Assembly: GCA_963700285.1 (NCBI GenBank)
Contig: CAVOXA010000009.1
Span: 128,001-192,000, forward strand
Source of the DNA: an uncultured Chloroflexia bacterium
Lineage (GTDB): Bacteria > Chloroflexota > Anaerolineae > JAAYZQ01
Reading direction: 5' to 3'
DNA: 64,000 nucleotides
The notes beneath the pieces are model-generated. The model had not been told where the DNA came from, searched no databases, and worked only from the letters and a program-made list of their open reading frames with translations. The position numbers and the translations under genes were made by a program. Each line of letters opens with the position of its first letter. Within the stretch, counting starts at the first letter, position 1. Below, one piece after another: positions 12,294 through 60,327 of the stretch.

Positions 12294-12323
12294 TTGACAT
12301 TTTAGCCATATGTCTGGTATAAT
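12294..12323 (+). promoter_or_regulatory. Sigma70-type promoter of the glycan operon
   Basis: TTGACA (12294-99), 18-nt spacer, TG-extended TATAAT (12318-23). Confidence 0.8.
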
Positions 12324-12423
12324 GAAGCCGCACAGACAAGCTAGCTGGTGCTGTGGTCACGGATGTCTGAGGAGGCGCTGGATTGCTGCCAGCCCAATGC
12401 AGACAGCCCAGGGAGGAAAGAAC

Positions 12424-13272: not shown

Positions 13273-13717
13273 AACCCAAGTGATTGGCGTTGTCATTATC
13301 GTCCTGGCACTGGTTCTCATCATGGAATTGGTTCGTCGCCGGCGGCTGCGTACCGGGTACTCGCTGCTATGGCTGTTCACCGGCCTTGTCGTGCTGGTCC
13401 TGGCCATGTGGACAGGCTTGGTAGAGTACCTGACGCAGTTTCTAGGCGTCCGGTCTCCTGGATCGATGCTATTTGCAGCCGGTATCCTGTTTACCCTTCT
13501 TCTTCTGCTGGAGCACAGCCTTTCCCTTAGCACCCTGTGGCAAGATAACAAGTGCCTGACCCAAGAAGTAGCACTCCTGGAGTGGCGAATTCGCCAGCTT
13601 GAGGCATCCCTTGAGGGTGAGCCCGTGATTCCGCCTGCAGCCTCTCGAATGGAAGGGCAACCCGATGGTGAGGGGCTTCCCAACCTGGAGGAGGAGGTCT
13701 TTGAGCTTGCCAGGTAG
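13262..13717 (+). CDS. DUF2304-like small membrane protein
   Basis: LVRRRRLRTGYSLLWL, three TM helices and a C-terminal coiled segment LTQEVALLE. This family typically follows DPM-like GT2 genes. Confidence 0.8.
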   Translation: MSPRTQVIGVVIIVLALVLIMELVRRRRLRTGYSLLWLFTGLVVLVLAMWTGLVEYLTQFLGVRSPGSMLFAAGILFTLLLLLEHSLSLSTLWQDNKCLTQEVALLEWRIRQLEASLEGEPVIPPAASRMEGQPDGEGLPNLEEEVFELAR

Positions 13718-15392
13718 CAAGGTCATGGTCATCGGGTTGGATGGGGCCACGTTTGACCTGATCGAGCCCTGGGCCCAAGCACGCCATCTACCGACCTTTC
13801 AGCGCCTCATGGCGCAGGGAGCCTATGGCTCGTTGCACAGTACGATTCCCCCCATGACCGCCCCTGCCTGGACATCCTTTATGACCGGCAAGAACCCCGG
13901 GAAGCATGGCCTCTACGACTGGATCTACCGCTGTGACGATAGCTACGGCGTTTCCCCGGTGACAGCTGCGCGCTGCCATGAGCCAACTCTCTGGTCGCTC
14001 CTGAGCAATGCAGGACGGCGGGTCTGTGTTATAAATGTACCCATGACATTCCCGCCCACGAGGGTGAACGGAGCAATGATCTCTGGCTTGCCTGCCCCTT
14101 CCACCCGAGTGACCATCACCTACCCGCCTGATCTCTTGGAGGAGATCGAGGATAAAGTCGGCGAGTATCTGCTGTATCCCGATCCTGGCCAAGCCTATTC
14201 GGACAGCGGAGTGGATGCCTTTCTGGACAACCTGTACCGTACGACCGAAACCCGCCTGCGCGTGCTGGACTACCTGCGCGCCGGGGAAGATTGGGATTTT
14301 TTGATGCTGGTTCTCAATGGTACCGACACGGTCCAGCATGCCATGTGGAAATACATGAGTGCCGATCATCCACAGCACCAACCGGGCAAGCGAGAGAAGT
14401 ATGGCGATGCCATTCTGCGCTACTTTCAGTATGTGGATCGGGTTTTGGACCGGATCGTCGCCAGTCTGGACGACAGCACCACGTTGGTCATCATGTCCGA
14501 TCATGGCTTTGGGCCCTTTCACAAGTTCATACATCTCAACAATTGGCTGCGCCATGAGGGGTGGCTTCAGATCAAGGGCAGCCCTTGGGCATCCGTCAAG
14601 TCTGGTTTATTTGGCCTGGGGCTTACACCTATGGGGGTTTACAATCTGCTTATGCGCTTGGGCATGGGGGCATTCAAGCGCGAGGTAGTGCGCGGCAGGG
14701 GCCAAGGGCTTCTGAGAAAACTGTTTCTCTCCTTCGATGATGTGGATTGGCAGCATACGGCGGCATACTCGCTGGGCAATGTCGGCCAGATCTGCCTCAA
14801 TGTCCGGGGACGTGAGCCGCAAGGCTGCGTGGAGCCTGGGAGGCAGTATGAGGCCATACGCAGTGAGATCATGGACCATCTACGCCAACTGCGGGATCCA
14901 CAGACGGGCGAGCGGGTCGTGGAAGTAGTCTATCGACGTGAGGAGGTCTACTGGGGTCAAAATGTCGAGATGGCTGCTGACATTGTCTTTATCCCGACGC
15001 GATTGGAGTATTTTGGATTCGGTGAGTACGAGTTTGGTTCCAACGAGATCATTGAGAGCGTGGAACGCGGTATTTCTGGGACCCACCGGCTCAACGGGAT
15101 GGTGCTGCTTTGGGGAGCGGCAGCTTCCGCAGGCGCACATCTCAGAGATGCCCAAATCATTGACCTGGCACCTACTATCCTGCGTATTCTGGGCGAAGCG
15201 GCGCCTGATGATATGGATGGCCAGGTATTGACGCAAGCTCTCAACTCAGAGTACGCTGGCCAGTGGCCCACTGGAGGTCCTCCAGCACCCGAGTCCACCT
15301 TTCCAGCATCCGTTGCTGTGGCCGAGTACCTGACAGATGAGGACAAGGAACTCATTGCCGATCGATTGCGCGGCCTGGGCTATGTTGGATAG
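13701..15392 (+). CDS. Alkaline-phosphatase superfamily (type I phosphodiesterase/NPP-like) protein
   Basis: VIGLDGAT, STIPPMTAPAWTSFMTGKNPGKHG, MSDHGF, GTHRLNG, C-terminal RLRGLGY. TTG start after GAGGAGG. Confidence 0.88.
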   Translation: MSLPGSKVMVIGLDGATFDLIEPWAQARHLPTFQRLMAQGAYGSLHSTIPPMTAPAWTSFMTGKNPGKHGLYDWIYRCDDSYGVSPVTAARCHEPTLWSLLSNAGRRVCVINVPMTFPPTRVNGAMISGLPAPSTRVTITYPPDLLEEIEDKVGEYLLYPDPGQAYSDSGVDAFLDNLYRTTETRLRVLDYLRAGEDWDFLMLVLNGTDTVQHAMWKYMSADHPQHQPGKREKYGDAILRYFQYVDRVLDRIVASLDDSTTLVIMSDHGFGPFHKFIHLNNWLRHEGWLQIKGSPWASVKSGLFGLGLTPMGVYNLLMRLGMGAFKREVVRGRGQGLLRKLFLSFDDVDWQHTAAYSLGNVGQICLNVRGREPQGCVEPGRQYEAIRSEIMDHLRQLRDPQTGERVVEVVYRREEVYWGQNVEMAADIVFIPTRLEYFGFGEYEFGSNEIIESVERGISGTHRLNGMVLLWGAAASAGAHLRDAQIIDLAPTILRILGEAAPDDMDGQVLTQALNSEYAGQWPTGGPPAPESTFPASVAVAEYLTDEDKELIADRLRGLGYVG

Positions 15393-15407: not shown

Positions 15408-16274
15408 ATGATTCATAATGGCTTCACTGTCGATTTGGAGGACTGGTTCCAGGGCCTCACCAGCACGAACCCCTACCCAGAAAAATGGGCGGACTACGAG
15501 GCGCGTCTGGAAGGCAATACGGAACGTTTGCTCGCCCTGCTGGAGCGATATGGTGTCCATGCTACTTTTTTTGTCCTGGGCCACGTAGCGGACCAGTATC
15601 CAGCGTTGATCCGCCGCATCGACGCTGCGGGTCACGAGATCGGTGTGCACGGCTACTGGCACGACATGGTTCACCGCCTCACACCTGAGCAATTCTCGCT
15701 GCAGCTGGAACGGGCGTTTGAGGCATTGGAACCCCTGGTAAGCCAGCCGATTTTGGGGCACCGCGCACCCTACTTTTCCATAAACCGGCATGCGCTCTGG
15801 GCGCTGGAGGTGCTGGCAGACAAGGGGTTCACCTACGACAGCAGTTTCTTTCCCACGCGCAATACGCTCTATGGTTATCCCGAGGCTCCCCGATTTCCCT
15901 GCCGGCTGGCAACCGCCGGCGCAGCCGGGGCTACCCGGAATGGCAATGCTAGCTCTCGTCTGGTGGAGTTCCCGGTGTCCACTGCCCGCTGGCTGGGCGT
16001 TAACTGGCCAATCGGGGGGGGCTTTTACGTTCGAGCCCTGCCCTATGCCATCATCCGTGCGGGGATCCACCAGCTCAACCATCAGGGTCAACCAGCGATC
16101 ATGTACATGCATCCCTGGGAGTTGGACGTAGGGCAGCGCTTCGACAAAGTGACATTGCGCGAGCGGGTGACCCACTACTATGGCCGGCGAGGCCTGATGA
16201 AGAAGCTAGACCAGATGTTTCAGGACTTTGCCTTTGTACCGCTGGGGCGGTTGCTTGACTTTGTGCCCGCGTGA
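15408..16274 (+). CDS. Polysaccharide deacetylase (CE4; DUF3473/PEP-CTERM-locus type)
   Basis: FTVDLEDWFQ, ATFFVLG, HEIGVHGYWH, GHRAPYFS, GGGFYVR, YMHPWELD. Confidence 0.9.
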   Translation: MIHNGFTVDLEDWFQGLTSTNPYPEKWADYEARLEGNTERLLALLERYGVHATFFVLGHVADQYPALIRRIDAAGHEIGVHGYWHDMVHRLTPEQFSLQLERAFEALEPLVSQPILGHRAPYFSINRHALWALEVLADKGFTYDSSFFPTRNTLYGYPEAPRFPCRLATAGAAGATRNGNASSRLVEFPVSTARWLGVNWPIGGGFYVRALPYAIIRAGIHQLNHQGQPAIMYMHPWELDVGQRFDKVTLRERVTHYYGRRGLMKKLDQMFQDFAFVPLGRLLDFVPA

Positions 16275-16313: not shown

Positions 16314-19300
16314 TTGGCTAACGTGGAACGGCGAGCGATGGGCCTCGCCATGGACGTGCAGCCTGGCACGGTTGTTCCAGGCTGGGGCGCCAGCCTGGCA
16401 GGCTTGTTTATCGTGCTCAGTCTGATAGCGGCCTTTCTGGCTGTGGGCCTCGGCCTACCAGCCCATCTGCCCCTGCAAGCAGCGAGCTGGCTCACCTTCC
16501 TCGCGGTCGTGATTGCCCCCGGCTATATCCTGGGTGAGATTGTCACCTGGCGCCTTGACCTGGACCTGCTCGAGCGGCTGGCGATGGCCATGCCTCTGGG
16601 GGTGGTTGTGATGGTGGCACCGGGCCTGGTAGCGATGCTGGGACATCTGGTGATCGAAGACCTGGCAGTGGGCTGGACGCTGACGGTAGGCTGCCTGATC
16701 GCGCTGTGGTTCATCCATAGGCTGCTGCTACGCAACGATTCCCGTCGTTCCATCAGTCCGCCGTGGCGCTGGTCCGACGTTGCCATGCTCCTGCTGCTGG
16801 CTGCGGCCTTTGTCTATGTGTTTCCCACACTCTCCTTGTACAAGATGGATGGGGATGCTTATGGCGTCGCTACCTTTACCGCCGACGCACTGACGGGCCG
16901 CCCACTGAACGCCACCGAACCGATCCTGGGTACTGGCAGGAGCATGGGCACCATCCGTATGGGGATGAACCAGTTGCTGCCTGTCTTTCACTTGTGGGCC
17001 TATTTCTCTCGAGCGGACCACATAGAATTGCTGGGTACCGCCTCACGGTCAATGCTGGCATTGTGGGCAATTCTGGCGTCCTACATGCTGGGCAAGGCAG
17101 CCGGACGCGGCAGCCGGCGCGTGGGATTCCTAACGGCCTCCATCCAGATGCTCGTATACCTGGCCGCGCCCTTTGTCCGTGTGGATCATGTGAGCATCTT
17201 TTTCTTTGAGCGAACCAACGCCGACAAGTTCACCGTCACAGTCACCATGCTGCCGGTGGTTGCTGCTCTGGCGATCCGCTATGTAGGTACGGGGCGTCGG
17301 GATACGTGGATCGCGCGCGCCACGTGGCTGGCGGCTGCCCTGGCCGCCTTTGCGGTATCCAGCATTCACGCACTCATCGCCGCCATGCTAGCTCTGGCCC
17401 TAAGCGCCTTTGGTGGTCTGCACCTCCTCGTCAATCTACGACGGCGCGAGGCGTGGATCCGTGTCGGTGGGCTTGCCCTCCTGACGGTGATTGTGATGAT
17501 CATGCCGCTGATCCAGCTCTTCGAGGCGCGCAGCGGAGAGGCCATGGCTCCCACGTACCCCTCCAGCTTTCAGGGCTGGTCCATTGAGGAGAGGCTGATG
17601 CCCATTCTGCCCTCGGCCCTCTCCTCCCGCTTTCACTCTATCATACCCTCATACCAGATACCAGGCCTGGATGTGTACGGCCCCCTCCCCGATCTGGCCT
17701 ACCTGGACGCGGAACAGGTCAACACTTCCACCAATCCCTTTCTGATCTGGCGCTTTGCAGTCAACATGCGTCGACAACGCATCATCGTGTTCGACCTGGA
17801 GCGTTACATTTCGGATCCGACCCTGATCCTGGAGCCTCCCTATCTGCTTGCTTTGCTCCTTCTGCCATTCCTCTTGTGGCGGCTACGTTCCGACCCTGGC
17901 GTCCAGTTCTGCTTGAGTACCTCTTTGGCCGTGCTGTTTGTCCTATTCAACCCAATCCTGACGCCCATCCTTGGCTCGCTGGTCATGCCCTGGATCCTGT
18001 GGCGGTTTGTCTGGCTGCTGCCCTATGCGCTCATCATTGCCCTGGTGTTCGACAGGTTGTTGGCTGCCTTCGTCTGGCCTCTGACCCGCTGGCCCAGGCT
18101 CAAGCCGGTCAGAGCCGCATTGGTGGCCATTGGTTCTCTGGGCTTTGTCGTTCTTGCTGCCCTGTTTTTGCGGCAGAATGTTGCGACAAATATCGAAGAA
18201 ATACAGGCACGAGGGGCAGCCCCTTTGGTCTATGCTACCCCAGACAAAATCCTGGCTCGTCTACGACGAGAGACTGCCCGGGATGGCCCGGTCATGGTCT
18301 TGGCTGACAGCAACCTCAGCGTGACGATTCCAGCGTTCGCTGGCAATGCAGACGTGGTGGCCCATCGCATTCTTGGAACGGCCGAGATGTTTCCCGCAGA
18401 TCAGCAGGACCTGGCGCTGCAGCGTCACATCGACCAATACGAGTTCCTCAACACAGCTCTGCTAACACCCCTACACATCGAAATACTGGAGCGGTATGAC
18501 GTTCGCTATGTCGTAGTGCCTGTCGGTACAAGCCTGGAGACGCAACTGCGACTCTCGCCGCAGTGGTTCGAGTGGTTGGTAGCCGATGAGGGCTATAGCC
18601 TGTACGCTGTGCATCAGCGTCCCAGTGTCACCGAGAGTGTGCTGGGAAACGCTGCTTTTCTCGAGCGCCGCTGGGAGGCGGCGTCAACCCACTACCAAAA
18701 CGCACTTGATCAAGATGTAAGTCCTGGCGCAGCCAGTACCGCAGGCGACAGCGGGTCCGGCATGCTGGCCCTGCTGGGACAGGCCGATATTTATCGCGTC
18801 AATGGCCAATTTGACCGCGCTCTCCTGACTCTCCGGCAGGCATTGGCCCAGGCGGAAACTGGCTCCACGGCAGATGGCAGGGAGGCTCCTGCATTGCATT
18901 ACCGCATGGGGCAGGTCTACGCAGACATGGGACAGCTGGAAGGGAGCATCGAGGAGTTCGATCTGGCTCAGCGAGGAGATCCCTCAAGCTTTGCATACCA
19001 CATGGCCCTGGGCGACGCTTGCCTGAGCGCCAGGCAAAGTGAATGCGCGCAAGAGCAGTTCAGGGCTGCAGTAGAACCATTGGGTCTGGCAGACGAAGCC
19101 CAGCGCCTCATGCTGCTGGGCAGCATCTGGCAGCAAAGGGCAGATGATGGCCTGGCGCTAGCCCTCTATGAACAGGCTGCAGTGGAGAGACCTGGCGAAC
19201 AGACCCAACTTGCGCTGGCAGACATGCACCGGAACGCGGCGCAGTTTGATAGGGCTGAAGCGTTGCTCCTTGCACTGCGCCAGAGGTATCCTCTCTGGGT

Positions 19301-22300
19301 CAAGCCCGACGCACATCTGCGCATTCTCTCGGCCCTGGCCCGCCTGCGAGCGGACGAAGGGAGAGTCGATGAGGCTGTTGCCTTGTTCCAATCCATCATT
19401 GGGTTGCAGGAGCAGCTGGCACAAGATACGCGTTCTACCCGCCTTGTTCTGGCTCAGACCCTGTTGGATGCCAGCGTAGACGCTCCGGACAGCGACGCAT
19501 ATCGTTTTGACAGGGTGCGTGAGGAAATAGAGCGGGTGCTGAGCCTGCAACCCCATAGCGCCGCGGCTTACATCTTGCTCGGGAATCTGTATCGCGCCCA
19601 GTACGAGCCCAGGCTAGCCATGGAGGCATACCGGTACGCACTGCGGCTGGATCCCACAGAGGCGGCAGCGTACACCTCTCTTAGCGACCAGCACAGGCAG
19701 CAGGCAACTCCTCCCGATGAAACGCTGGCCCTCATGCAGTCGGCGGTAGCGTTCAATCCCGAGCAGGCGATCTTGGCTATCTCTCTGGCGGACCAGTTCC
19801 GGCGCATGGGCGACGTCGATATGGCCATCACCACTTACCAACGTGCCCTGGGTTGGTTCGATTTGGGAAGCGCCGCGGTGGCGCCAGGCAGCAGCAGCGG
19901 ACCACAGCCGACTGGGCGCATCCGCTCCCTATCCTATTCGCGATTGGCGGCGCTGTATGAAGACCTTGGCCAGGTAGACACCGCCATGAATTACTATCGA
20001 GCGGCTGTGACGGCCGCTCCAGAACAGGCCTGGAGTTGGGTGACCTTGGGTGATGCTCTGCGACGACGCAACCGGGCTTCTGCGGCAGAGGAAGCCTATC
20101 GCACGGCAATTCAGGAAGATCCAGCACAAGTCGACGCCTATTTACACCTGGCCAGTCTGACGAGTGACCGCGGTGATTCGTCCGGGGCCTCAGAACTGTC
20201 CGAGCAGGCTCTGCAGATCGCGCTGGATGGGTCCAATCTTGCTCAAACCTCCAGAGCTTGGCTGGCCTTGGGCAGCTACTACAGCCAGTCGCCCCAGGAA
20301 CAGATCGAATTTGGTTCCGACGGGGATTTCTTCACCGGCGATGATTCCACGAGCCCAGTCACTGCCAGAGCCATGGTGGCCTATCACCAGGCGCTGGAGG
20401 CAGAAGAGAGTGTGGCTGGTGTTCGGGCGCTGGCCAGTCTCTATCAAGACTCGGGCCAGACCGAGGAGGCCATCTCTCTGTACAAGCAGCGGATCCAGGC
20501 AGGGGAGCGTGACAGGTGGGTCCCCTCCCTGCTGGCCCAATATTACGTGGGTTTGGGTGACGCCTATCTTGACGGGCGGCAACTGGAGAAAGCGATGGCG
20601 GCCTTTGCGCAGGCTGTGGACCTGGATGGCTGGTGGTCAGGTGCGCGCTTGGCTCTGGCACGGGGCTACTCTGAGCAAGGGGACCAGAGAAGGGCGCTGG
20701 CCGAGATCCTGCGTGCCACAGAGATTTCCCCAGGGGCTGCTGAGGCGCAGCTATCGCTGGCCGGTGCCCTTGATGAGCAAGAGGACAGCGAGCAAGCACT
20801 GGCCATCTACCAGGCCACTGCGCAGGCTCATCCCGGCAGCTCGCCCGCGAACCTTGCCCTCGCACGTGCCTGGCTGGATCGCTATCACTGGGACATGGCC
20901 GAGCAGAGCTACCGCCAGGCCATGGCCATGGTACCGGGTGACACCGAAGCCTACCTGGGGCTGGCCAGCCTCTACATTCTGCGGGCGCGCGCCGATGAAG
21001 CTGAGGTCTTGCTCAACAAAGCCATGGAGATTGATCGCAGCAATCCGGAAACCTACCTTCGGCTGGGGGCCTTACTGGCGCGCCGGGCCCGCCACGCCGA
21101 GGCCCTGGATGCTTATCGGCAAGCCGTGCAGATGAGCGGGCCCTGGCAGGAACCTCGGGGCGCTGACCTGGCTCAGACTGCGATCTATGCCGGGCTGGCT
21201 GGAGTCCAGCGAGCCCTGGGTGAATTCGGGCAAGCTGAGGAGAGCCTCAAAAGGGCTGTCGAGGTGAATAAAGCCAGCACCGCGTCTGGGACTGTTGCAG
21301 CCCCTTTGCTCCAATTGGCTGGTCTGTATAGAGAACAGAATCAGCCTGACAAGGTGGAGCAGACATTGCTCCTGGCTCTGGATATGCTCCTTGATGACGC
21401 CGCAAGCGACAGCCGGGGATCTCCTTCTGGCGCCTCTCAGTCAATGCTGCGCGTTCGCCTGGCATTGGCCGAGTTCTACCAGTCCATGGCACAGAGTGAC
21501 AAAGCCTTAGAAACGCTGCACCTTGCCGTGGAAGAAAACCCGGACTCGATGGCGGCGCTGACTGGCTATGCTAGCCAACTGCGTCTCATGGGGCGCGTCG
21601 AGGAGGCCGATCTGCTCTACCTGCAGGCTCAGGATGCGGCGGAGCCCACAGGGGCGGGATACCAGGCGTTGGCAGCTGCATACCAGGCTCAGGGGCAGGA
21701 GTCAGTGGCCATGGCGCTACTGAATGAGGCCACTATCCGCGATCCCAGGGACGTGGGGGCCTGGATCCAAAAGGGCCGGCTACAAATGCAGCTTGACCAG
21801 CAGTCGGGAGAATTGGAGATTGAGAACCCATCCTCGGCTTGGGTGGCGGCATTGGAGCAGGCCACCGAACTCGAGCCAGCACAGGGCCGGACCTGGAATG
21901 CTCTGGGCAATACACTGCTGGCAGCGGTGAATGACGGTGGCGACGAAGGGGCTGGAACTGGGTACTCTGCCGGCTGGGACAGGGGGACGGCGGCGCTTAA
22001 GCAGGCTATTGCCGTTGAGCCCATGTACCTGCCGGCTTATGGCGCCCTGCTGGAGGCATACCGCGAACCATCGCCTTCGAGTTCGAGCCCGTCAATGCCT
22101 TGGCGGAGCGAACAGGCGTTGGAGATTGTAGAAATGGTCAGGCTGACAGCTCCTGGTAGCCATCTGGGTCACCTCTATGAGGCGCGCGTCCAGGAGGACC
22201 TGCAACGGTGGGCTCAGGCCCGGGAAGCCTTAAAGCTGGCCATGATCCAGGCGCCGGGCCTGCCCGAGGCCTACGTCGCGATGGGCCAGCTAGAGCAGCT

Positions 22301-25300
22301 GCAGGGCAACAACGAAGCGGCGGCGAACTGGTACCGGCAAGCCAATGACCTGCGCCCAGGTGAGCGGGCGGCTTATCTGAACCTGATAGATCTATTGCTC
22401 AGCCAGGGCGAAAACCTGGAAGCTCTGAGAATAGCCCAGAAAGCTATCGGAAACCGGCCTGGGGACAGCGAGCTGCTTCTTCGCCAGGGCCGCATCCAGC
22501 GGATCCTGGGAAGGTATGCCGACGCCGAGCCGGCGCTGCTGCAGGCTGCCCATCTAGATCCCTTTAACGACAGCATTCCAGCCGAATTGGCGGCCGTCTA
22601 CGAGGCGCAGGGCAAGTTGGAAAAAGCCATTGTTGCCTACGATGATGCGGTTTCACTCAATCCTGAACAAGGAGCTTATTACGTGGCCCTGGGCCGGCTT
22701 TGGTCCGCACGAGGGCGACCGGAGCACGCGCTCTCTCTGCTTGAGAGCGCTCTGCTCCAGGTGTCCCGCCCGACGCCCCTGTATGTTGCCATGTCTGACC
22801 TCTATCTGCGTCGTGGTGAGCCCAGGCTGGCCCGGGAGATCCTCGAAGAAGGCATCGAAGCGTTGGGCGAGGACGCCCTGCTCCGGCAAGCCCTGGGCGC
22901 CTACTACCGGTCCCAGGCCGAGTTCGATCGAGCCGAAGAGACCTATCGTGACGCGGTGATCCAGCAGCCTGATGAGTATGCAGCAGATGCAAGCCAGGGG
23001 CATCTGGCCCTGGGGGGGTTTTACCTGAGCCGCGGACGTGTCGAAGAGGCGCTGACTGAGTATGAACAGGCCGCGGCTTCCGGCGCCGTGGCCGCTGCCG
23101 GTGGCGAGGCGCGCGCACTCCTGGCCCTGGGCAATGCCTACCGGGCCATGGGACGAACGGAGCAGAGCATTGATGCCTATTCCCGGGCGACTGAATTGGC
23201 TCCCAGGTCGGAAGACGCCTACAGTGGTTTGGCATCTGTGTATCGCAGCCAGGCTCGATGGCAGGACGCCCGAAGGACGCTGCAGAGTGGGCTGGCGGTT
23301 GTACCTACTTCGGGCCGGCTATTGATGGATCTCAGTGACCTGCTCCTGCAGCGGGGGGAGGTGGATGGAGCCCTTGATCTCTTGGATCAAGCGGTTCAGC
23401 TCTCGGCCAGCGCCAGGACTTATGTGGCCAGGGCCGCTCTGTACCGCGTGCTGGGACGGCCCGATGACGCGGTGCGCGACTTGGAGATGGCGCGCCAGAT
23501 CGAGCCTGGCTCTGTCGAAGCACTGGTTGCCCTGGGCAGTTTGTACCGGTCGCTGGGTGATGTCGCAGGGGCAAAAGAGGCATACAGGCTGGTTCTTTCG
23601 CTGGTACCTGGCACGGCGGCGTCTCACCTGGGCCTCGCAGAACTGGCCCTCGACCAGGGCCAACTACATGAAGCTTGGTGGCAGTTTGATGCTGCCCAGA
23701 AGGTCGAACCGGCTTCATCCGCCCCATTGTTGGGCCTGGCCGCGGCGCGTTCCAGGCAGAATAACTGGGATGAGGCCGAAGCGGCCTACCGTCAAGCGGC
23801 GGAGTTGGCTCCTGGAGCGACTGCGCCTTATATTGGTCTGGCCGACCTTGCCCAACGCCGTACGGGCAGCACGGCGGATGCCTTGGCCGTGCTCGAGCAG
23901 ATTGATGGCCCAGGACCGAGTCGTGGTACTGTCCAGCGTGCGATGGCCGGGATCTGCCGTAGCTCTTCAGCTTCTGCCAAGTGCCAGCCAGACCTCGTGG
24001 CTGAAGCCCTGCTCGAGGCGGCTCGATTGGAACCGGACAGGCCGGAAGCATATCTTTCCCTGGCGGATCTCTATCTGGCCGAGGGGCGCCCCCTCGAAGC
24101 CGGGCCCAATGTCTCCCTGGCTGAGGAGATCGCCCCGTGCGATCCTGCTGTCCATGTTGCTCAAGGCAACGTCCATCATGCGCTTGGCGATCCAGCGGCG
24201 GCTGAAAGTAGCTACCGGGAAGCCATCAGACTGGATGCCACGCGAATGGATGGACACGTGGCCCTGGCGCGATTCTATGTGGTAGAAGAAAACTATGCCG
24301 AGGCTGTAGCCGCATACCAGGAGGGCATTCGGCGGTTTCCCCTGGAGTGGTCGCTCTGGCTTTCGCTGGGCAATGTGTATCTAGCCATGGAATCGTATGC
24401 CGATGCCCTTTCTGCGTTCCAGCAGGCAGCCAAGATGAATCCTAATGCTCCCGAGCCGTGGCTGGGCCAGGGCGACGCGCAGATGGCCAGGGAAAAGTGG
24501 GAGGCAGCCCAGGAGGCCTACGAGCAGGCGCAGCGCTTGGACCTACAGCAGGCTGAAGCCTTGCTGCGCCTGGCCAGTCTCGCAGAGGAGCAAAAGAAGG
24601 CAGACAAGGCCATCCAGTATGCACGCCAGGCTGTGAAAGTCGATCCCACTCTGGCCGCTGGCTATGTAGCCCTGGGTCGCTTGCTGCAGGAGAAGGAACA
24701 GATCGGTGAAGCGGCAGATGCCTTTCTGTCGGCCATCCAACTCGATCCCCGCCGGCATGCAGCCTACAACCGTTGGATGTGGTGCTATATGGACATAAAG
24801 CGCGTGCCCTACAGTGTGGACAGGAGCCGCCTGGAGGCCGAGTTGGCCAAGATAGCCAATGGAGATCAATTGGAGACCGTATGGGCCCAGACACTCTTGG
24901 GGTTGGGCTACCTGACCCTGGAGGAGGACATCGAGCGGGCCATACAGCATCTGGAGAAGGCAGCCGAGATGGATCCCACCTATGCTGAGCTGTACCAGGA
25001 TCTGGCTCTGGCTAACGAGGAGGGCCGAGATGGCCCGCGCGCGCTGGAATGGTGGCAGAGATATCTGTATGCAGCACGCCCGAGTACGGACACCAGCGAG
25101 GCACAGAAGCACATCGACAATCTGAAACTGGTTTCTATCGAGCAGCCAGCGACTGGCGATCGGGTATCTGGAAAGGTGAAAATAGTCGGTACAGCCAAGG
25201 GTAGGATGGTCCAGTCCTACAAGTTAGTATTCCGGGCCGTGGGTTCGGAAGAGTGGTCATCAATTGGTACCGGGGCTGAACGGATCGAGAGTGGACTGTT

Positions 25301-25424
25301 GGCTACGTGGGATACCATTGGACTCTCACCAGGTGAATATCAGCTCCGGCTCGACGTGGTCAGGTCGGATGAAGATGTCAGGCCCTATGATGAGATCACG
25401 GTCATAGTCCAGCCATCGAACTGA
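16314..25424 (+). CDS. Giant 3036-aa protein: multi-pass GT-C-like membrane domain, very long TPR array, C-terminal Ig-like domain
   Basis: Uninterrupted 9.1-kb ORF. The first ~630 aa hold many TM helices, followed by a soluble module (VLAD..ILERYDVRYVVVP). About 2150 aa of TPR-like repeats (LG..Y...G...EA...Y..A...P) follow. The start could instead be ATG 16338. Confidence 0.85.
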   Translation: MANVERRAMGLAMDVQPGTVVPGWGASLAGLFIVLSLIAAFLAVGLGLPAHLPLQAASWLTFLAVVIAPGYILGEIVTWRLDLDLLERLAMAMPLGVVVMVAPGLVAMLGHLVIEDLAVGWTLTVGCLIALWFIHRLLLRNDSRRSISPPWRWSDVAMLLLLAAAFVYVFPTLSLYKMDGDAYGVATFTADALTGRPLNATEPILGTGRSMGTIRMGMNQLLPVFHLWAYFSRADHIELLGTASRSMLALWAILASYMLGKAAGRGSRRVGFLTASIQMLVYLAAPFVRVDHVSIFFFERTNADKFTVTVTMLPVVAALAIRYVGTGRRDTWIARATWLAAALAAFAVSSIHALIAAMLALALSAFGGLHLLVNLRRREAWIRVGGLALLTVIVMIMPLIQLFEARSGEAMAPTYPSSFQGWSIEERLMPILPSALSSRFHSIIPSYQIPGLDVYGPLPDLAYLDAEQVNTSTNPFLIWRFAVNMRRQRIIVFDLERYISDPTLILEPPYLLALLLLPFLLWRLRSDPGVQFCLSTSLAVLFVLFNPILTPILGSLVMPWILWRFVWLLPYALIIALVFDRLLAAFVWPLTRWPRLKPVRAALVAIGSLGFVVLAALFLRQNVATNIEEIQARGAAPLVYATPDKILARLRRETARDGPVMVLADSNLSVTIPAFAGNADVVAHRILGTAEMFPADQQDLALQRHIDQYEFLNTALLTPLHIEILERYDVRYVVVPVGTSLETQLRLSPQWFEWLVADEGYSLYAVHQRPSVTESVLGNAAFLERRWEAASTHYQNALDQDVSPGAASTAGDSGSGMLALLGQADIYRVNGQFDRALLTLRQALAQAETGSTADGREAPALHYRMGQVYADMGQLEGSIEEFDLAQRGDPSSFAYHMALGDACLSARQSECAQEQFRAAVEPLGLADEAQRLMLLGSIWQQRADDGLALALYEQAAVERPGEQTQLALADMHRNAAQFDRAEALLLALRQRYPLWVKPDAHLRILSALARLRADEGRVDEAVALFQSIIGLQEQLAQDTRSTRLVLAQTLLDASVDAPDSDAYRFDRVREEIERVLSLQPHSAAAYILLGNLYRAQYEPRLAMEAYRYALRLDPTEAAAYTSLSDQHRQQATPPDETLALMQSAVAFNPEQAILAISLADQFRRMGDVDMAITTYQRALGWFDLGSAAVAPGSSSGPQPTGRIRSLSYSRLAALYEDLGQVDTAMNYYRAAVTAAPEQAWSWVTLGDALRRRNRASAAEEAYRTAIQEDPAQVDAYLHLASLTSDRGDSSGASELSEQALQIALDGSNLAQTSRAWLALGSYYSQSPQEQIEFGSDGDFFTGDDSTSPVTARAMVAYHQALEAEESVAGVRALASLYQDSGQTEEAISLYKQRIQAGERDRWVPSLLAQYYVGLGDAYLDGRQLEKAMAAFAQAVDLDGWWSGARLALARGYSEQGDQRRALAEILRATEISPGAAEAQLSLAGALDEQEDSEQALAIYQATAQAHPGSSPANLALARAWLDRYHWDMAEQSYRQAMAMVPGDTEAYLGLASLYILRARADEAEVLLNKAMEIDRSNPETYLRLGALLARRARHAEALDAYRQAVQMSGPWQEPRGADLAQTAIYAGLAGVQRALGEFGQAEESLKRAVEVNKASTASGTVAAPLLQLAGLYREQNQPDKVEQTLLLALDMLLDDAASDSRGSPSGASQSMLRVRLALAEFYQSMAQSDKALETLHLAVEENPDSMAALTGYASQLRLMGRVEEADLLYLQAQDAAEPTGAGYQALAAAYQAQGQESVAMALLNEATIRDPRDVGAWIQKGRLQMQLDQQSGELEIENPSSAWVAALEQATELEPAQGRTWNALGNTLLAAVNDGGDEGAGTGYSAGWDRGTAALKQAIAVEPMYLPAYGALLEAYREPSPSSSSPSMPWRSEQALEIVEMVRLTAPGSHLGHLYEARVQEDLQRWAQAREALKLAMIQAPGLPEAYVAMGQLEQLQGNNEAAANWYRQANDLRPGERAAYLNLIDLLLSQGENLEALRIAQKAIGNRPGDSELLLRQGRIQRILGRYADAEPALLQAAHLDPFNDSIPAELAAVYEAQGKLEKAIVAYDDAVSLNPEQGAYYVALGRLWSARGRPEHALSLLESALLQVSRPTPLYVAMSDLYLRRGEPRLAREILEEGIEALGEDALLRQALGAYYRSQAEFDRAEETYRDAVIQQPDEYAADASQGHLALGGFYLSRGRVEEALTEYEQAAASGAVAAAGGEARALLALGNAYRAMGRTEQSIDAYSRATELAPRSEDAYSGLASVYRSQARWQDARRTLQSGLAVVPTSGRLLMDLSDLLLQRGEVDGALDLLDQAVQLSASARTYVARAALYRVLGRPDDAVRDLEMARQIEPGSVEALVALGSLYRSLGDVAGAKEAYRLVLSLVPGTAASHLGLAELALDQGQLHEAWWQFDAAQKVEPASSAPLLGLAAARSRQNNWDEAEAAYRQAAELAPGATAPYIGLADLAQRRTGSTADALAVLEQIDGPGPSRGTVQRAMAGICRSSSASAKCQPDLVAEALLEAARLEPDRPEAYLSLADLYLAEGRPLEAGPNVSLAEEIAPCDPAVHVAQGNVHHALGDPAAAESSYREAIRLDATRMDGHVALARFYVVEENYAEAVAAYQEGIRRFPLEWSLWLSLGNVYLAMESYADALSAFQQAAKMNPNAPEPWLGQGDAQMAREKWEAAQEAYEQAQRLDLQQAEALLRLASLAEEQKKADKAIQYARQAVKVDPTLAAGYVALGRLLQEKEQIGEAADAFLSAIQLDPRRHAAYNRWMWCYMDIKRVPYSVDRSRLEAELAKIANGDQLETVWAQTLLGLGYLTLEEDIERAIQHLEKAAEMDPTYAELYQDLALANEEGRDGPRALEWWQRYLYAARPSTDTSEAQKHIDNLKLVSIEQPATGDRVSGKVKIVGTAKGRMVQSYKLVFRAVGSEEWSSIGTGAERIESGLLATWDTIGLSPGEYQLRLDVVRSDEDVRPYDEITVIVQPSN

Positions 25425-25449: not shown

Positions 25450-26598
25450 ATGACAGAACAATCCAGCCCTGACCTTGTTGACCAGGTCAGCCCTGAGTAC
25501 GCCGAACGGGCTTGGGAGATCGGTACATATCAGGAGGACGACAAGGTCGGAGTCCTGGATCTTGTCCGGGACGAGTACGGTGAAACCGATCTTGCGGATG
25601 GAGATTACTTTGACTGGCTGAGACTGGCCTGTCCTCCAGACGTCGGCCAATGGGTCGTCAGAGAAAAGGGGACCGGCCGGGTAGTCAGCGCCGCTACAAT
25701 GGTTGGCGTTCAGGCCATTTGGAAGGGAAATGAGATCAAGGCTCTCCTGGGCTTTAACTTTCTTGTTGCCCCCGAGTACCAGCGCCAGGGGATCCACACC
25801 GCGTTCACCAGGCAGACAAGAGAGGACATACGACGGGCTGGCTACTGCTTCACCACCCTATTTCCGAATCCCAAATCCATGCCGCAACTGGTCCGTTCAG
25901 AGAACTATCACCATGTTTCCCAGGTGCCGCTGCTTGTGCGTCCTCTGAACATGCGCGCGCTGGCCGAGGCGAGGGTCAAGAACCAGCTTCTCGTTTGGGC
26001 AAGCTCCCTGGGTTGGGGCTTCGCAGGTCGCGTCATCTGGCGTGAGCCAGGCCCCCCTCATGTCGACCCACCTCTGCATATTTCGGAAGACCTCGTACTT
26101 GACGAAGGCTACGACCGCTTTTGGCGTCAGGTGCAGACCAAGTACGATCTCATGCTGGTTCGTGACCGGGCATTCCTGACGTGGCGCTTTCTCGATATCC
26201 CAACGCGAGAGTACCAGATCCTATCGGCGCGGCAGGGTGATGGGGTTCTGGGTTACATCGTGCTGCGCCAGGCAGATGCCCGGGGGACCATGTCTGGGAT
26301 CATTGCTGATTTCCTGGTCCTGCCCGGGGAGCAAGGAACCTGGGCAGGACGGCATTTGCTACACGAGGCTCTGCGGCAGTTTAGGGAAGCACAGATGCCC
26401 TTAGCCGGGGGGCTGGTACTGCCGCATACGCACGAGTATACACTCATGCGCGACGCGGGGTTCCTGAGCGTTCCGGAACCTGTTGCACCCCAGCCTTTCA
26501 ATCTGTTTGTCCGGAGTCACAGTGATGACCCTCCGCTGGAGGCGCTCACCTGCCCTGAAACCTGGTACGTTTCCATCGCCGATCATGACGCCGTCTAG
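25450..26598 (+). CDS. GNAT-family acyltransferase (two-domain)
   Basis: FLVAPEYQRQGI acyl-CoA motif, FPNPKS, VRDRAFLTWRF. GAGGAG RBS. Confidence 0.8.
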   Translation: MTEQSSPDLVDQVSPEYAERAWEIGTYQEDDKVGVLDLVRDEYGETDLADGDYFDWLRLACPPDVGQWVVREKGTGRVVSAATMVGVQAIWKGNEIKALLGFNFLVAPEYQRQGIHTAFTRQTREDIRRAGYCFTTLFPNPKSMPQLVRSENYHHVSQVPLLVRPLNMRALAEARVKNQLLVWASSLGWGFAGRVIWREPGPPHVDPPLHISEDLVLDEGYDRFWRQVQTKYDLMLVRDRAFLTWRFLDIPTREYQILSARQGDGVLGYIVLRQADARGTMSGIIADFLVLPGEQGTWAGRHLLHEALRQFREAQMPLAGGLVLPHTHEYTLMRDAGFLSVPEPVAPQPFNLFVRSHSDDPPLEALTCPETWYVSIADHDAV

Positions 26599-27846: not shown

Positions 27847-27916
27847 ATGGAAATCGCTGTGTCAATGACAAGACTGGGACCGAGCTTCTAACCGCTGCCC
27901 TTACAAAGGAGTGAAG

Positions 27917-31714: not shown

Positions 31715-31800
31715 GCCCCCGTGGCGGAACTGGCATACGCGGCAGGTTGAGGACCTGTGCTCGCAAGGGCGTGGAGGTTCAAATCCTCTCGGGGGCACCA
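31715..31800 (+). tRNA. tRNA-Leu (anticodon GAG)
   Basis: Acceptor stem GCCCCCG/CGGGGGC, anticodon arm GCAGG-TT GAG GA-CCTGT, long variable arm, GGTTCAAATCC T-loop, encoded CCA. Confidence 0.96.
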
Positions 31801-60320: not shown

Positions 60321-60327
60321 GCGAAAC

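What the first reader, a model, noticed from the sequence alone, without database searches (positions are those of the whole stretch)
16314..25424. 3036-aa GT-C-like enzyme fused to a ~2150-aa TPR rod and Ig-like tip (TMTC-like architecture)
Seen: an intact ORF with a multi-TM N-terminus and an acidic first loop (KMDGDAY). A soluble module (ILERYDVRYVVVP) follows, of the kind that trails GT-C membrane domains. TPR-like repeats run from about 18640 to 25120, roughly 50-60 repeat lengths, with Ser/Gly-rich inserts. Established: eukaryotic TMTC O-mannosyltransferases combine a GT-C domain with far fewer TPRs, and TPR arrays form superhelices. Inference: an extracytoplasmic rod tens of nm long that scaffolds the modifying enzymes, guides the polymer across the wall, acts as a ruler, or selects protein substrates for glycosylation.
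Basis: partly seen in the sequence, partly recalled or inferred. Interest (0 to 1): 0.75.

Follow-up and report, generated by a model that had tools for sequence, protein, structure and literature searches.

The report
Giant membrane glycosyltransferase with TPR rod
This intact 3036-residue gene of a Chloroflexota bacterium joins a membrane domain predicted to have the fold of lipid-sugar-dependent (GT-C) glycosyltransferases to about fifty TPR repeats and a small, likely Ig-like end, and it likely adds an amino sugar made by its conserved neighbour genes to a cell-surface polymer; public databases call such proteins only 'TPR repeat protein' and none has been tested.

Summary
The ORF at 16314-25424 is intact (3036 aa). 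It has about 15 membrane helices, an alpha/beta module, 43-52 TPR units with five Ser/Gly/Pro-rich inserts, and a weakly Ig-like tail.

The GT-C reading is supported. An AlphaFold model of residues 1-780 (pLDDT 93.9) matches only GT-C enzymes in its first 28 Foldseek ranks (STT3, DPY19, AftA, PglB, ArnT, AftD, ALG12). Asp181 of the 'DGD' loop is kept in 80 of 80 relatives. Charge distribution predicts that the TPR array lies outside the cell.

It is not a TMTC/PMT family member. It belongs to the uncharacterised DUF6077/DUF6541 group.

The main new point is context. In about 40 Chloroflexota MAGs the gene sits in one cassette: a PpgS/DPMS/ArnC-like GT2, an alkaline-phosphatase-family enzyme, a deacetylase, a FemAB-like acyltransferase (lost in this lineage), the giant, an anchored minimal TIM barrel, and an MFS transporter. 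This suggests an ArnC/ArnD/ArnT-like lipid-linked amino-sugar pathway.

Most orthologs are about 2000 aa. The roughly 3000-aa form with the Ig tail is a recurrent long variant. The GH18 neighbour is lineage-specific. The rod, ruler and scaffold ideas remain untested.

Verdict: a new variant of a known kind, of moderate interest.

The parts
12310..13272 (+). GT2 glycosyltransferase of the polyprenyl-phosphate sugar synthase type; first gene of the conserved cassette. The true start may be later, since the GT2 domain begins at about residue 52.
   Evidence: Pfam Glycos_transf_2 6.3e-22. Best NCBIfam hits are PpgS 1.6e-28, AglJ and ArnC, all below cutoff. Best PDB sequence hits are Dol-P-Man synthase 5mlz 8.8e-12, ArnC 8vxh 5.5e-9 and GtrB 5ekp 1.8e-4. 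A homolog lies upstream in 39 of 50 related loci.
13665..15392 (+). Alkaline-phosphatase-superfamily enzyme (type I phosphodiesterase family), with no signal peptide or TM segment; role unknown.
   Evidence: Pfam Phosphodiest 7.4e-45. No hydrophobic segment. A homolog is present in 42 of 50 loci and directly upstream of the distant 3020-aa form in G014.
15408..16274 (+). Cytoplasmic CE4-type deacetylase with DUF3473, of the XrtA-system type.
   Evidence: Pfam Polysacc_deac_1 3e-23 and DUF3473 3.3e-36. TIGR03006 scores 266.6 bits against a cutoff of 276.2; ArnD is a weak hit. A homolog is present in 43 of 50 loci.
16314..25424 (+). The giant gene, 3036 aa.
   Evidence: It is single-copy in the genome.
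16314..18170 (+). Membrane domain, residues 1-619, about 15 TM helices. Four N-terminal helices (24-138) precede an 11-helix GT-C-fold core.
   Evidence: AF2 pLDDT 93.9, pTM 0.93. Foldseek ranks 1-28 are all GT-C enzymes. Relatives match DUF6077/DUF6541.
16833..17018 (+). First large outside loop (residues 174-235) with two short helices. It holds the DGD motif; the Asp181 codon is at 16854-16856. This is the likely catalytic loop.
   Evidence: Asp181 is kept in 80 of 80 aligned relatives and Arg215 in 77 of 79. Helices at 180-193 and 221-232.
18171..18623 (+). Extracytoplasmic alpha/beta module (residues 620-770) following the last TM helix.
   Evidence: AF2 secondary structure with pLDDT above 90. 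It is the best-conserved part shared with distant relatives; phmmer best stretches mostly begin at about 456-515 and end at about 738-780 of the query.
18624..25013 (+). TPR array (residues 771-2900): 43-52 units, five Ser/Gly/Pro-rich inserts, net charge -110.
   Evidence: Orthologs are 34-41% identical over the compared TPR stretches in BLASTP; the multiple alignment gives about 25-53% identity to the window per 50-residue bin over the aligned TPR blocks.
25131..25421 (+). C-terminal beta-rich domain of about 97 aa, likely Ig/PKD-like.
   Evidence: Among the 150 best representatives it is found in 6 of the 7 that are 2500 aa or longer, and also in G014 and G015.
25450..26598 (+). Double-GNAT acyltransferase, lineage-specific. 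It is not homologous to the FemAB-like gene that other loci carry before the giant gene.
   Evidence: Pfam. BLASTP against the L015 FemAB-like protein gives E 4.8. It is present only in L013, 1 of 50 loci.
26662..27846 (+). Secreted GH18 chitinase-like protein, lineage-specific.
   Evidence: Pfam Glyco_hydro_18 4.8e-55. Hydrophobic N-terminus. Present only in L013.
27911..29059 (+). Conserved partner. It has a signal peptide (a lipobox in some orthologs), a minimal 8-stranded TIM barrel (residues about 50-270), a Pro/Thr-rich linker and a C-terminal TM anchor.
   Evidence: No Pfam or NCBIfam hit. Alignment A2 has invariant N74, D81, N128, E130, P165, Q187, Q189, Q192 and Q221, and nearly invariant D166. 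The AF2 core has pLDDT above 90. Foldseek finds only generic TIM barrels. A homolog follows the giant gene in 38 of 50 loci.
29049..30305 (+). MFS_3 transporter, last conserved gene of the cassette; candidate flippase or exporter (inferred).
   Evidence: Pfam MFS_3 2e-52. A homolog is present in 38 of 50 loci and near the distant form in G015.

Best explanation
The gene encodes a 3036-residue membrane protein whose first ~620 residues are predicted to fold as a GT-C glycosyltransferase. It likely takes an amino sugar from a polyprenyl-phosphate carrier and transfers it, outside the membrane, to a cell-envelope polymer.

Shown here:
- The frame is intact.
- The fold prediction is confident and matches only GT-C enzymes.
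- An Asp in the first large outside loop is invariant.
- Loop charges fit an N-in, C-out topology.
- The array has 43-52 TPR units.
- The gene sits in a conserved cassette in about 40 Chloroflexota MAGs.

Inferred pathway:
1. The neighbouring GT2, of the PpgS/DPMS/ArnC type, loads a HexNAc onto polyprenyl phosphate on the cytoplasmic side.
2. The cytoplasmic CE4 deacetylase frees the amine, as ArnD and NaxD do.
3. In most lineages a FemAB-like enzyme re-acylates it; in this lineage a GNAT enzyme may do so.
4. The MFS protein or another flippase turns the lipid-linked sugar outward.
5. The GT-C domain, using Asp181, transfers it to the acceptor.

Inferred role of the tail: the acidic TPR superhelix, about 40 nm long if continuous (recalled geometry), likely serves as a docking platform that reaches into the wall. 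It would hold the acceptor polymer or partner proteins such as the anchored TIM barrel. The Ig-like end would then bind a wall or surface component.

My pick for the acceptor is a glycopolymer rather than a protein, at roughly 55:45.
For: Fold: the AF2 model of residues 1-780 has pLDDT 93.9 and pTM 0.93. Foldseek against the PDB gives 24 hits at E <= 0.001, and ranks 1-28 are all GT-C enzymes (STT3/OST 5.9e-8, DPY19, AftA with TM 0.45/0.54, AglB, PglB, ArnT, AftD, ALG12). The next hits are transporters at probability below 0.2.

Catalytic loop: D181 is kept in 80 of 80 relatives, K305 in 80 of 80, D304 in 79 of 80, R564 in 79 of 79, R215 in 77 of 79 and H352 in 76 of 78. In my helix assignment D181, R215, D304, K305 and H352 lie in outside loops or at the outer ends of helices, and R564 lies in the 546-570 outside segment.

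Topology: with 15 helices, the short cytoplasmic loops carry 14 K/R in 68 residues and the short outside loops 3 in 59.

Cassette: homologs of the GT2, AlkP-family enzyme, deacetylase, TIM-barrel protein and MFS flank the gene in 39, 42, 43, 38 and 38 of 50 related loci. A FemAB-like gene is present in 42 of 50. Distant long forms (27-33% identity in the N-terminal domain) in G015 and G014 also lie near GT2, deacetylase, FemAB and MFS homologs, or next to the AlkP-family gene.

Donor type: the GT2's best solved relatives are polyprenyl-phosphate sugar synthases (DPMS, ArnC, GtrB), and its best NCBIfam hit is PpgS.

Literature:
- GT-A enzyme plus flippase plus GT-C enzyme is the established multi-component way to decorate wall polymers outside the membrane (PMC8035078, passages read).
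- Deacetylation of an undecaprenyl-phosphate-linked GalNAc by NaxD precedes transfer (PMC10927774, passage read).

Lean toward a glycan acceptor: the deacetylase and FemAB-like genes score just under the cutoffs of the XrtA/PEP-CTERM exopolysaccharide-locus families TIGR03006 and TIGR03019. The TPR region scores above the cutoff of the PrsT model of the same system, 396.9 against 312.2 bits.
Against: - No enzyme activity, donor or acceptor has been shown for any member of this family.
- The window's own N-terminal domain matches no Pfam or NCBIfam family and no PDB sequence. Everything about it rests on a predicted structure with modest TM-scores (0.34-0.55).
- I could not obtain residue-level superpositions; the VIA aligner was busy at every try. 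The equivalence of Asp181 with the catalytic Asp of known GT-Cs is therefore inferred from loop position only.
- The GT2, deacetylase and FemAB-like hits are all below the curated cutoffs.
- The PrsT score sums 10 TPR stretches and may reflect nothing more than many TPRs.
- Long TPR arrays usually bind proteins or peptides, and the top Foldseek hits (STT3, DPY19) modify proteins. This favours a protein acceptor.
- The FemAB-like gene is missing in this lineage, so the sugar made here may differ from that in other lineages.
- The MFS protein resembles EntS-type exporters and may be unrelated to flipping.
- The roles of the AlkP-family enzyme and the TIM barrel are unexplained.
Confidence: 0.55

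Rival explanations
1. It is a protein O-glycosyltransferase that works like TMTC or PMT. The GT-C domain would glycosylate secreted or surface proteins (for example S-layer or sheath proteins), and the TPR array would select and hold the unfolded or repetitive protein substrate.
For: - The architecture, GT-C followed by TPRs on the non-cytoplasmic side, is that of TMTC1-4 (PMC7801869, passages read).
- TPRs are typical peptide-binding modules (established knowledge).
- The best Foldseek E-values are to the protein-modifying STT3 and DPY19.
- The TPR region is 34-41% identical to orthologs over the compared stretches. This fits a specific ligand surface rather than a mere spacer.
Against: - There is no sequence membership in PMT, PMT_2 or DUF1736.
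- The bacterial GT2 plus GT-C systems reviewed in PMC8035078 modify glycopolymers.
- The cassette partners (deacetylase and FemAB-like of the exopolysaccharide-locus type, a TIM barrel, and GH18 in this lineage) point to carbohydrate chemistry.
- The highest TM-scores are to AftA, which acts on a glycan.
Confidence: 0.25
2. It is mainly a scaffold or export guide, like PelB, BcsC, AlgK or PrsT. The TPR superhelix would organise extracytoplasmic modifying enzymes and lead a nascent exopolysaccharide through the wall. The GT-C-like domain would act as the membrane anchor or as a polymerase rather than a single-sugar transferase.
For: - NCBIfam hits of the TPR region are to PrsT (above cutoff) and, below cutoff, PgaA and BcsC.
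- The deacetylase and FemAB-like pair is typical of XrtA exopolysaccharide loci.
- An anchored extracytoplasmic TIM-barrel partner is conserved.
- TPR number varies between lineages from about 26 to about 50.
Against: - The invariant Asp, Arg, Lys and His residues in outside loops argue for a working active site.
- The GT2 is of the single-sugar lipid-carrier type, not a processive synthase.
- TPR hits to these models may be generic.
- No porin or synthase partner is in the cassette.
- The genome's only exosortase lies on another contig.
Confidence: 0.15
3. The topology is the reverse of my reading and the TPR array is cytoplasmic. The protein would then be a membrane-anchored cytoplasmic scaffold and not a working GT-C enzyme.
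For: The segment 546-570 holds two short helices that could in principle span the membrane, which would change the helix count. The topology rests on prediction only.
Against: - The positive-inside count is 14 against 3 K/R for the chosen topology.
- Known GT-C enzymes keep their C-terminal soluble domain on the non-cytoplasmic side (established knowledge).
- The invariant acidic loop would face the cytoplasm and lose its meaning.
Confidence: 0.05

Closest known systems
TMTC1-4 (eukaryotic GT-C/PMT-clan O-mannosyltransferases with about 10 lumenal TPRs) and their prokaryotic full-length homologs
   Same: Both have an N-terminal multi-pass GT-C domain with an acidic motif in the first non-cytoplasmic loop, followed by TPRs on the non-cytoplasmic side (PMC7801869, passages read).
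   Different: - No PMT, PMT_2 or DUF1736 sequence match.
- About 15 TM helices against 11.
- An alpha/beta module lies between the membrane domain and the TPRs.
- 43-52 TPRs against about 10.
- An Ig-like tail is present.
- The operon points to an amino sugar, not mannose.
Pfam DUF6077 (PF19554) and DUF6541 (PF20176), uncharacterised integral membrane families
   Same: 11 of 16 scanned relatives match DUF6077 above its cutoff and 2 of 16 match DUF6541 above its cutoff. Seven listed close relatives carry a precomputed PF19554 hit and four carry PF20176.
   Different: The window's own domain does not reach E <= 1 against either model. Neither family name nor accession occurs in any paper of the searched library. 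I recall, but could not check, that these families may be filed in Pfam's GT-C clan.
ArnC/ArnD/ArnT, NaxD-type lipid A galactosamine pathways, and PpgS with its GT-C partner in mycobacteria (lipid-linked amino-sugar transfer)
   Same: All combine a GT2 polyprenyl-phosphate sugar synthase, a CE4-type deacetylase or deformylase acting before transfer, and a GT-C transferase. The ArnD and PpgS-partner details are recalled.
   Different: - All family hits are below cutoffs.
- The cassette has extra FemAB-like, AlkP-family, TIM-barrel and MFS genes.
- The acceptor cannot be inferred by analogy with lipid A; the organism is a Chloroflexota bacterium.
- The transferase carries a giant TPR tail.
Multi-component transmembrane glycosylation systems of Gram-positive wall polymers (CsbB/GtcA/YfhO, GacI/GacK/GacL)
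   Same: The logic is the same: a lipid-linked single sugar is made inside, flipped, and added outside by a GT-C enzyme. Some large GT-Cs carry extracellular acceptor-binding domains (PMC8035078, passages read).
   Different: Different GT-C family, a candidate MFS instead of a GtrA- or Wzx-type flippase, and TPRs instead of carbohydrate-binding modules.
PelB, BcsC, AlgK, PgaA and PrsT periplasmic TPR scaffolds of exopolysaccharide systems
   Same: These are long extracytoplasmic TPR arrays in polysaccharide systems. The PrsT model is hit above its cutoff, and PgaA and BcsC below theirs.
   Different: They are outer-membrane-linked or lipoproteins and are not fused to a glycosyltransferase. Their roles are recalled from the literature and were not read here.
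Mycobacterial AftA and AftD arabinofuranosyltransferases
   Same: AftA gives the highest TM-scores (0.45/0.54), and AftD is also hit. AftD also has a very large soluble extension (passage).
   Different: No sequence similarity, and their extensions are not TPRs.

Membership tests
GT-C glycosyltransferase fold class | Multi-pass membrane domain with the GT-C fold | tested here: met
   The AF2 model has pLDDT 93.9. Foldseek PDB ranks 1-28 are all GT-C enzymes at probability 1.00 with TM 0.32-0.55. Non-GT-C hits begin at rank 29 with probability 0.16. This is a prediction, not a solved structure.
GT-C glycosyltransferase fold class | Conserved acidic residue in the first large non-cytoplasmic loop | tested here: met
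   Asp181 is kept in 80 of 80 relatives that have a residue at that column; Asp179 in only 37 of 76. The loop 174-235 is assigned to the outside. Superposition on a known catalytic Asp was not obtained because the VIA aligner was busy.
GT-C glycosyltransferase fold class | Uses a polyprenyl-phosphate-linked sugar donor | not testable with these tools
   Context only. A GT2 whose best relatives are DPMS, ArnC, GtrB and PpgS is conserved upstream in 39 of 50 loci.
TMTC / PMT family (GT39 clan) | Sequence match to PMT, PMT_2 or DUF1736 | tested here: not met
   Residues 1-780 match 0 Pfam families at E <= 1. In contrast, the other GT-C gene of the window (60295-62721) matches PMT_2 at 1.9e-14.
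TMTC / PMT family (GT39 clan) | TPRs C-terminal of the membrane domain, on the non-cytoplasmic side | tested here: met
   TPRs run from about residue 771. An outside location is predicted from 15 helices and loop charges. This is a prediction only.
Pfam DUF6077 / DUF6541 | Match to the family HMM above its gathering score | tested here: inconclusive
   The window itself gives no hit. The link runs through relatives: P0035 aligns to query residues 33-777 at E 3.3e-52 and matches DUF6077 at 56.8 bits against a cutoff of 27. Close relatives carry precomputed PF19554 or PF20176 hits.
PrsT (TIGR02917, XrtA/PEP-CTERM TPR lipoprotein) | Score above cutoff, lipoprotein of about 900 aa, and an XrtA locus | tested here: inconclusive
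   The score is 396.9 bits against 312.2 but is summed over 10 stretches. The protein is no lipoprotein; it is fused to 15 TM helices. The genome's only exosortase is on another contig. I do not file it as PrsT.
ArnC/ArnD/ArnT-type pathway | Equivalog-level matches of the GT2, deacetylase and GT-C | tested here: not met
   ArnC model: 32.5 bits against a cutoff of 529. ArnD model: 21.7 bits against 382. ArnT appears only as a structural hit at E 4.9e-4. The locus may work like this pathway but is not a member.
Ig-like domain (Big_7 / Big_13 / PKD) | Match above the gathering score or a predicted beta-sandwich | tested here: inconclusive
   Big_7 scores 18 bits against 24.1. Five of 8 tails hit Big_7 (best E 7.8e-4) and 3 of 8 hit Big_13. 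A profile of the tails hits a KIAA0319L PKD domain at E 3.9e-5.

The most novel reading that the evidence does not exclude
The cassette is a Chloroflexota-wide pathway of a kind not yet described. A lipid-linked hexosamine would be deacetylated and then re-acylated or aminoacylated by a FemAB-like enzyme while still on its carrier. A GT-C enzyme would then deliver it outside the cell. The enzyme's own 25-to-50-repeat TPR superhelix, tipped in the long forms by an Ig-like domain, would span the wall or sheath and fix where, or how far from the membrane, the surface polymer is modified. On this reading TPR number is a molecular ruler matched to envelope thickness.
Probability: 0.12. Interest if true: 0.8.

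Novelty: new variant of a known kind. Interest (0 to 1): 0.5.

Why it matters
The envelopes of Chloroflexota (Anaerolineae, Caldilineae and relatives) are poorly understood (recalled). Many of these bacteria are filamentous and common in sediments and activated sludge (recalled).

This work turns a set of giant genes annotated only as 'tetratricopeptide repeat protein' into candidate membrane glycosyltransferases. It gives them a defined, testable catalytic residue and a conserved six-to-seven-gene pathway.

It also adds a bacterial family, unrelated in sequence to TMTC, that has arrived at the same 'GT-C plus TPR' design and pushed it to five times the length. Natural length variants (about 1700 to 3400 aa) could be used to test what the TPR array is for.

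If the FemAB-like step acts on a lipid-linked sugar, that would be new glycobiology.

Tried and rejected
- Complex prediction (GT-C domain with the TIM-barrel ectodomain) was never accepted because the queue was full. Binding of the partner is untested.
- The search for related loci with alignment A1 failed for lack of a conserved stretch. A single-protein query was used instead.
- ESM Atlas on the TIM-barrel protein gave a best score of 0.76 and no structure search, so no lead.
- Sequencing runs: no RNA holder is listed, and the best DNA holders share 0.27 and 0.25 of the sampled words. No reads were laid, so nothing can be said on expression or habitat.
- The idea that the window's GNAT gene is a moved copy of the FemAB-like gene is rejected (BLASTP E 4.8).
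- The idea that the locus is part of an XrtA/PEP-CTERM locus is rejected for this genome. The only exosortase is on contig C1, and the best own-genome TIGR03019 match is 60.7 bits against a cutoff of 260.
- The idea that the extra ~1000 aa is a simple terminal extension is only partly upheld. BLASTP gives collinearity over 1-2050 and a second match of 1933-2466 to the last ~550 aa of short orthologs. MAFFT instead opens a gap at about 1590-1990 and aligns 1990-2470 to the ortholog ends. An old duplication of a ~500-aa TPR block plus a further tail fits both.
- Earlier scan notes by place and by sequence returned nothing.
- Literature: 'DUF6077', 'DUF6541', 'PF20176' and 'PF19554' occur in 0 papers of the searched library.

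Full report
**1. The observation**

The window holds one open frame at 16314..25424 (+) of 3036 codons. It has a TTG start and begins 40 nt after the stop of the upstream gene. The gene is single-copy in a 7.05-Mb, 22-contig genome that is 89% complete and 6.5% contaminated.

Pfam sees only TPR-type families, from about residue 770 to 2900. Residues 1-780 match no Pfam family at E <= 1, no NCBIfam family at E <= 0.001, and no PDB sequence at E <= 10.

Hydropathy shows a dense set of hydrophobic segments between residues 28 and 619. The motif YKMDGDAY is at 176-183 and ILERYDVRYVVVP lies in the soluble stretch before the TPRs.

A TPR profile built from the protein's own 24 best units finds 52 units between 819 and 2889, 43 of them at 5 bits or more. 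Five Ser/Gly/Pro/Thr-rich inserts interrupt the array, and the region is acidic with net charge -110.

The last ~97 residues give weak Ig-type signals. Big_7 scores E 0.0046 for the window. Big_7 is hit by 5 of 8 aligned tails and Big_13 by 3 of 8. A profile of the tails hits a PKD domain at E 3.9e-5.

The description is therefore correct, with one amendment. The acidic loop is the first large outside loop, but it follows the fifth helix, because four extra helices precede the core.

**2. The N-terminal domain**

A full HMMER scan of 1.84 billion representatives with residues 1-780 found 340 relatives at E <= 0.001, 192 at E <= 1e-10 and 51 at E <= 1e-30.

With 82 of these relatives as the alignment, AlphaFold gave a model with mean pLDDT 93.9 and pTM 0.93. 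Foldseek against the PDB returned 24 hits at E <= 0.001, and ranks 1-28 are all GT-C glycosyltransferases. They include STT3 in OST complexes (best E 5.9e-8), DPY19, AftA (TM-scores 0.45/0.54, the highest), AglB, PglB, ArnT, AftD and ALG12. Unrelated transporters follow with probability below 0.2.

The model has helices at 24-45, 54-77, 85-109 and 114-138. The core then begins with helix 153-173, followed by a 62-residue loop with two short helices (180-193, 221-232) that starts with the DGD motif.

In the 83-row alignment, Asp181 is present in 80 of 80 rows that have a residue there. Lys305 is kept in 80 of 80, Asp304 in 79 of 80, Arg564 in 79 of 79, Arg215 in 77 of 79 and His352 in 76 of 78. 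Asp179 is kept in only 37 of 76.

I could not obtain residue-level superpositions because the VIA aligner was busy at all twelve tries. The equivalence of Asp181 with the catalytic Asp of known enzymes is therefore inferred from its place in the loop.

**3. Topology**

I take the 15 long helices of the model as membrane spans. On that basis the short loops assigned to the cytoplasm carry 14 Lys/Arg in 68 residues, and those assigned to the outside carry 3 in 59.

This gives an N-in, C-out topology. The acidic loop, the 100-residue beta-rich loop (408-507), the alpha/beta module (620-770) and the whole TPR array are then outside.

The topology is predicted, not shown. The weakest point is the segment 546-570, which holds two short helices.

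**4. Family**

The window's own domain misses every Pfam model, but its relatives do not. Eleven of 16 scanned relatives match DUF6077 above its cutoff and 2 of 16 match DUF6541 above its cutoff. Among 120 listed long relatives, seven carry a precomputed PF19554 hit and four carry PF20176.

Public names for these proteins are 'tetratricopeptide repeat protein' or 'hypothetical protein'. Neither DUF name nor accession occurs in any paper of the searched library.

The protein is not a TMTC/PMT member, since it has no PMT, PMT_2 or DUF1736 match. The window's other GT-C gene, at 60295-62721, does match PMT_2.

TMTCs have 11 TM helices and about 10 lumenal TPRs, and full-length homologs with TPRs exist in prokaryotes (PMC7801869, passages read). 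The resemblance is one of design, not of family.

**5. Relatives and length variation**

A scan of one genome per species found 50 loci with a relative. All carry MAG titles of Chloroflexota (Anaerolineae, Caldilineaceae, Ardenticatenaceae, Promineifilaceae, Litorilinea and 'Chloroflexia' labels).

I examined 44 of these loci. Six short ones (L017, L031, L047, L054, L056, L058) were left out. Of the 44:
- 32 hold complete frames of 1725-2043 aa, with 26-34 crude TPR units and no Ig tail.
- 5 run off the contig.
- 7 are broken into short frames. One of these is the same-genus relative L013 (93% identical), whose Ig tail lies about 9.1 kb downstream of its start, so it has the same length as the window's gene.

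Among the 150 best representatives, 35 are 1500 aa or longer and 7 are 2500 aa or longer. Six of those seven have the Ig-like tail. The word-index search adds forms of 2626-3366 aa.

Distant long forms (27-33% identity in the N-terminal domain; 3020 and 3102 aa) in two other genera of the same family also end in this tail.

In a FastTree of the N-terminal domain (66 rows, 684 columns) the window falls in a fully supported 22-row clade of mostly giant forms. The ~900-1100-aa forms lie in sister clades. The four Ig-tailed rows group together, but with weak support.

The short orthologs are collinear with residues 1-2050 by BLASTP, at 38-41% identity. Residues 1933-2466 also resemble their last ~550 residues at 34-36%. 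MAFFT prefers a gap at about 1590-1990. An old duplication of a ~500-residue TPR block plus a further tail accounts for both alignments.

**6. Context**

tblastn of the window's neighbours against the 50 loci shows a conserved cassette:
- GT2: 39 loci.
- Alkaline-phosphatase-family enzyme: 42 loci.
- CE4 deacetylase with DUF3473: 43 loci.
- The giant gene.
- A protein without any family hit: 38 loci.
- MFS_3 transporter: 38 loci.

Short loci lower these counts.

Between the deacetylase and the giant gene, 42 of 50 loci carry a FemAB-like gene. In L015 this gene scores 218.5 bits against TIGR03019, whose cutoff is 260. The window and its two closest relatives (L013, L014) lack it.

Instead, the window and L013 carry an unrelated double-GNAT gene and a secreted GH18 gene after the giant gene. 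L014 ends before that region.

The GT2's best solved relatives are Dol-P-Man synthase, ArnC and GtrB, and its best NCBIfam hit is PpgS. The deacetylase scores 266.6 bits against TIGR03006, whose cutoff is 276.2. Neither it nor the AlkP-family protein has a signal peptide or TM segment.

The family-less partner has:
- a signal peptide (a lipobox in several orthologs);
- a ~220-residue domain with invariant N74, D81, N128, E130, P165, Q187, Q189, Q192 and Q221, and nearly invariant D166;
- a Pro/Thr-rich linker;
- a C-terminal TM anchor.

Its model (core pLDDT above 90) is a minimal eight-stranded TIM barrel that matches only generic barrels.

The distant long forms in G015 and G014 also lie near GT2, deacetylase, FemAB-like and MFS homologs, or directly after the AlkP-family gene. 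The association therefore holds across deep divergence.

**7. Mechanism**

The cassette has the logic of the multi-component transmembrane glycosylation systems. A GT-A enzyme makes a C55-P-sugar, a flippase turns it, and a GT-C enzyme adds it to a wall polymer outside. Some large GT-Cs carry extracellular acceptor-binding domains (PMC8035078, passages read).

The deacetylase adds the ArnD/NaxD step, in which a lipid-linked N-acyl amino sugar is deacylated before transfer (PMC10927774, passage read; the ArnD part is recalled).

I therefore propose the following, all of it inferred:
1. The GT2 makes polyprenyl-P-HexNAc.
2. The deacetylase frees the amine.
3. A FemAB-like enzyme (here perhaps the GNAT enzyme) re-acylates it.
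4. The MFS protein or another flippase exposes it outside.
5. The GT-C domain transfers it using Asp181.

The TPR array would be a docking platform. If continuous, it would be about 40 nm long, by recalled geometry of roughly 1 nm per TPR.

I lean towards a glycopolymer acceptor for three reasons:
- The bacterial systems of this type reviewed in PMC8035078 decorate glycopolymers.
- The deacetylase and FemAB-like pair, and the TPR hit to PrsT (396.9 against 312.2 bits, but summed over 10 stretches), recall XrtA exopolysaccharide loci.
- The partner is a TIM barrel.

A protein acceptor, as for TMTC, is a close rival. The roles of the AlkP-family enzyme and the TIM barrel remain unexplained.

**8. 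Verdict**

The GT-C and extracytoplasmic-TPR readings are supported by prediction. TMTC likeness is architectural only. The GH18 link is lineage-specific. The rod, ruler and scaffold roles are untested.

This is a new variant of a known kind: a GT-C enzyme with acceptor-side repeats inside a lipid-linked sugar cassette. It lies in an unstudied family that databases label only as TPR proteins.

Two earlier notes of this scan describe other giant GT-C fusions in Chloroflexota: a DUF2298 fusion with TPRs and an ArnT/Pmt-like cassette. They suggest that such designs are common in the phylum. I did not test them.

Noticed in passing
window 60295-62721 (+): A second GT-C gene lies in the same window: 808 aa, Pfam PMT_2 1.9e-14. 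It is unrelated in sequence to the giant gene.
   Followed up: no
window 50944-51897 (-) and 55224-56297 (-): The 317-aa frame has Toprim plus only the first 81 of 411 positions of the topoisomerase model. The 357-aa frame has the SRP54 N and G domains but no M domain. Both look cut short, perhaps by frameshift errors of the assembly. The same-genus relative has the giant gene broken into frames.
   Followed up: no
L015:8794-9906 and 41 other related loci: A FemAB-like gene (TIGR03019-like, 218.5 bits against a cutoff of 260) sits between the deacetylase and the giant gene in 42 of 50 loci. It is missing in the window, L013 and L014. With the TIGR03006-like deacetylase it forms the pair typical of XrtA/PEP-CTERM loci.
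   Followed up: partly
G000:C1:1373242-1374000 (own genome, outside the window): This is the genome's only exosortase (PF09721, 180 bits). It lies about 25 kb from weak FemAB-like matches at C1:1347000-1348970, which may mark a separate exosortase-type polysaccharide locus.
   Followed up: no
window 27911-29059 (+): The conserved anchored minimal TIM barrel has an 'NLEHGP'-type motif in orthologs (window: NPEHWE), with invariant N128/E130 at the end of strand 4 and a conserved 'RTEG' after strand 7 in orthologs. This is reminiscent of clan GH-A acid/base and nucleophile positions (recalled), but no glycoside hydrolase family is hit.
   Followed up: partly
window 44721-47051 (-) and 47096-48124 (-): Two adjacent long frames (776 and 342 aa) have no Pfam hit at E <= 1e-5.
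   Followed up: no
window 3365-4243 (-): A XerC/D-type tyrosine recombinase (Phage_integrase 6.5e-48). A tRNA-Leu lies at 31715-31800, just after the cassette region.
   Followed up: no
P0036, P0038, P0077, P0100, P0106, P0110, P0115, P0127, P0129: A separate class of about 2230-2370-aa relatives shares a different conserved C-terminal end, without the Ig-like tail.
   Followed up: no
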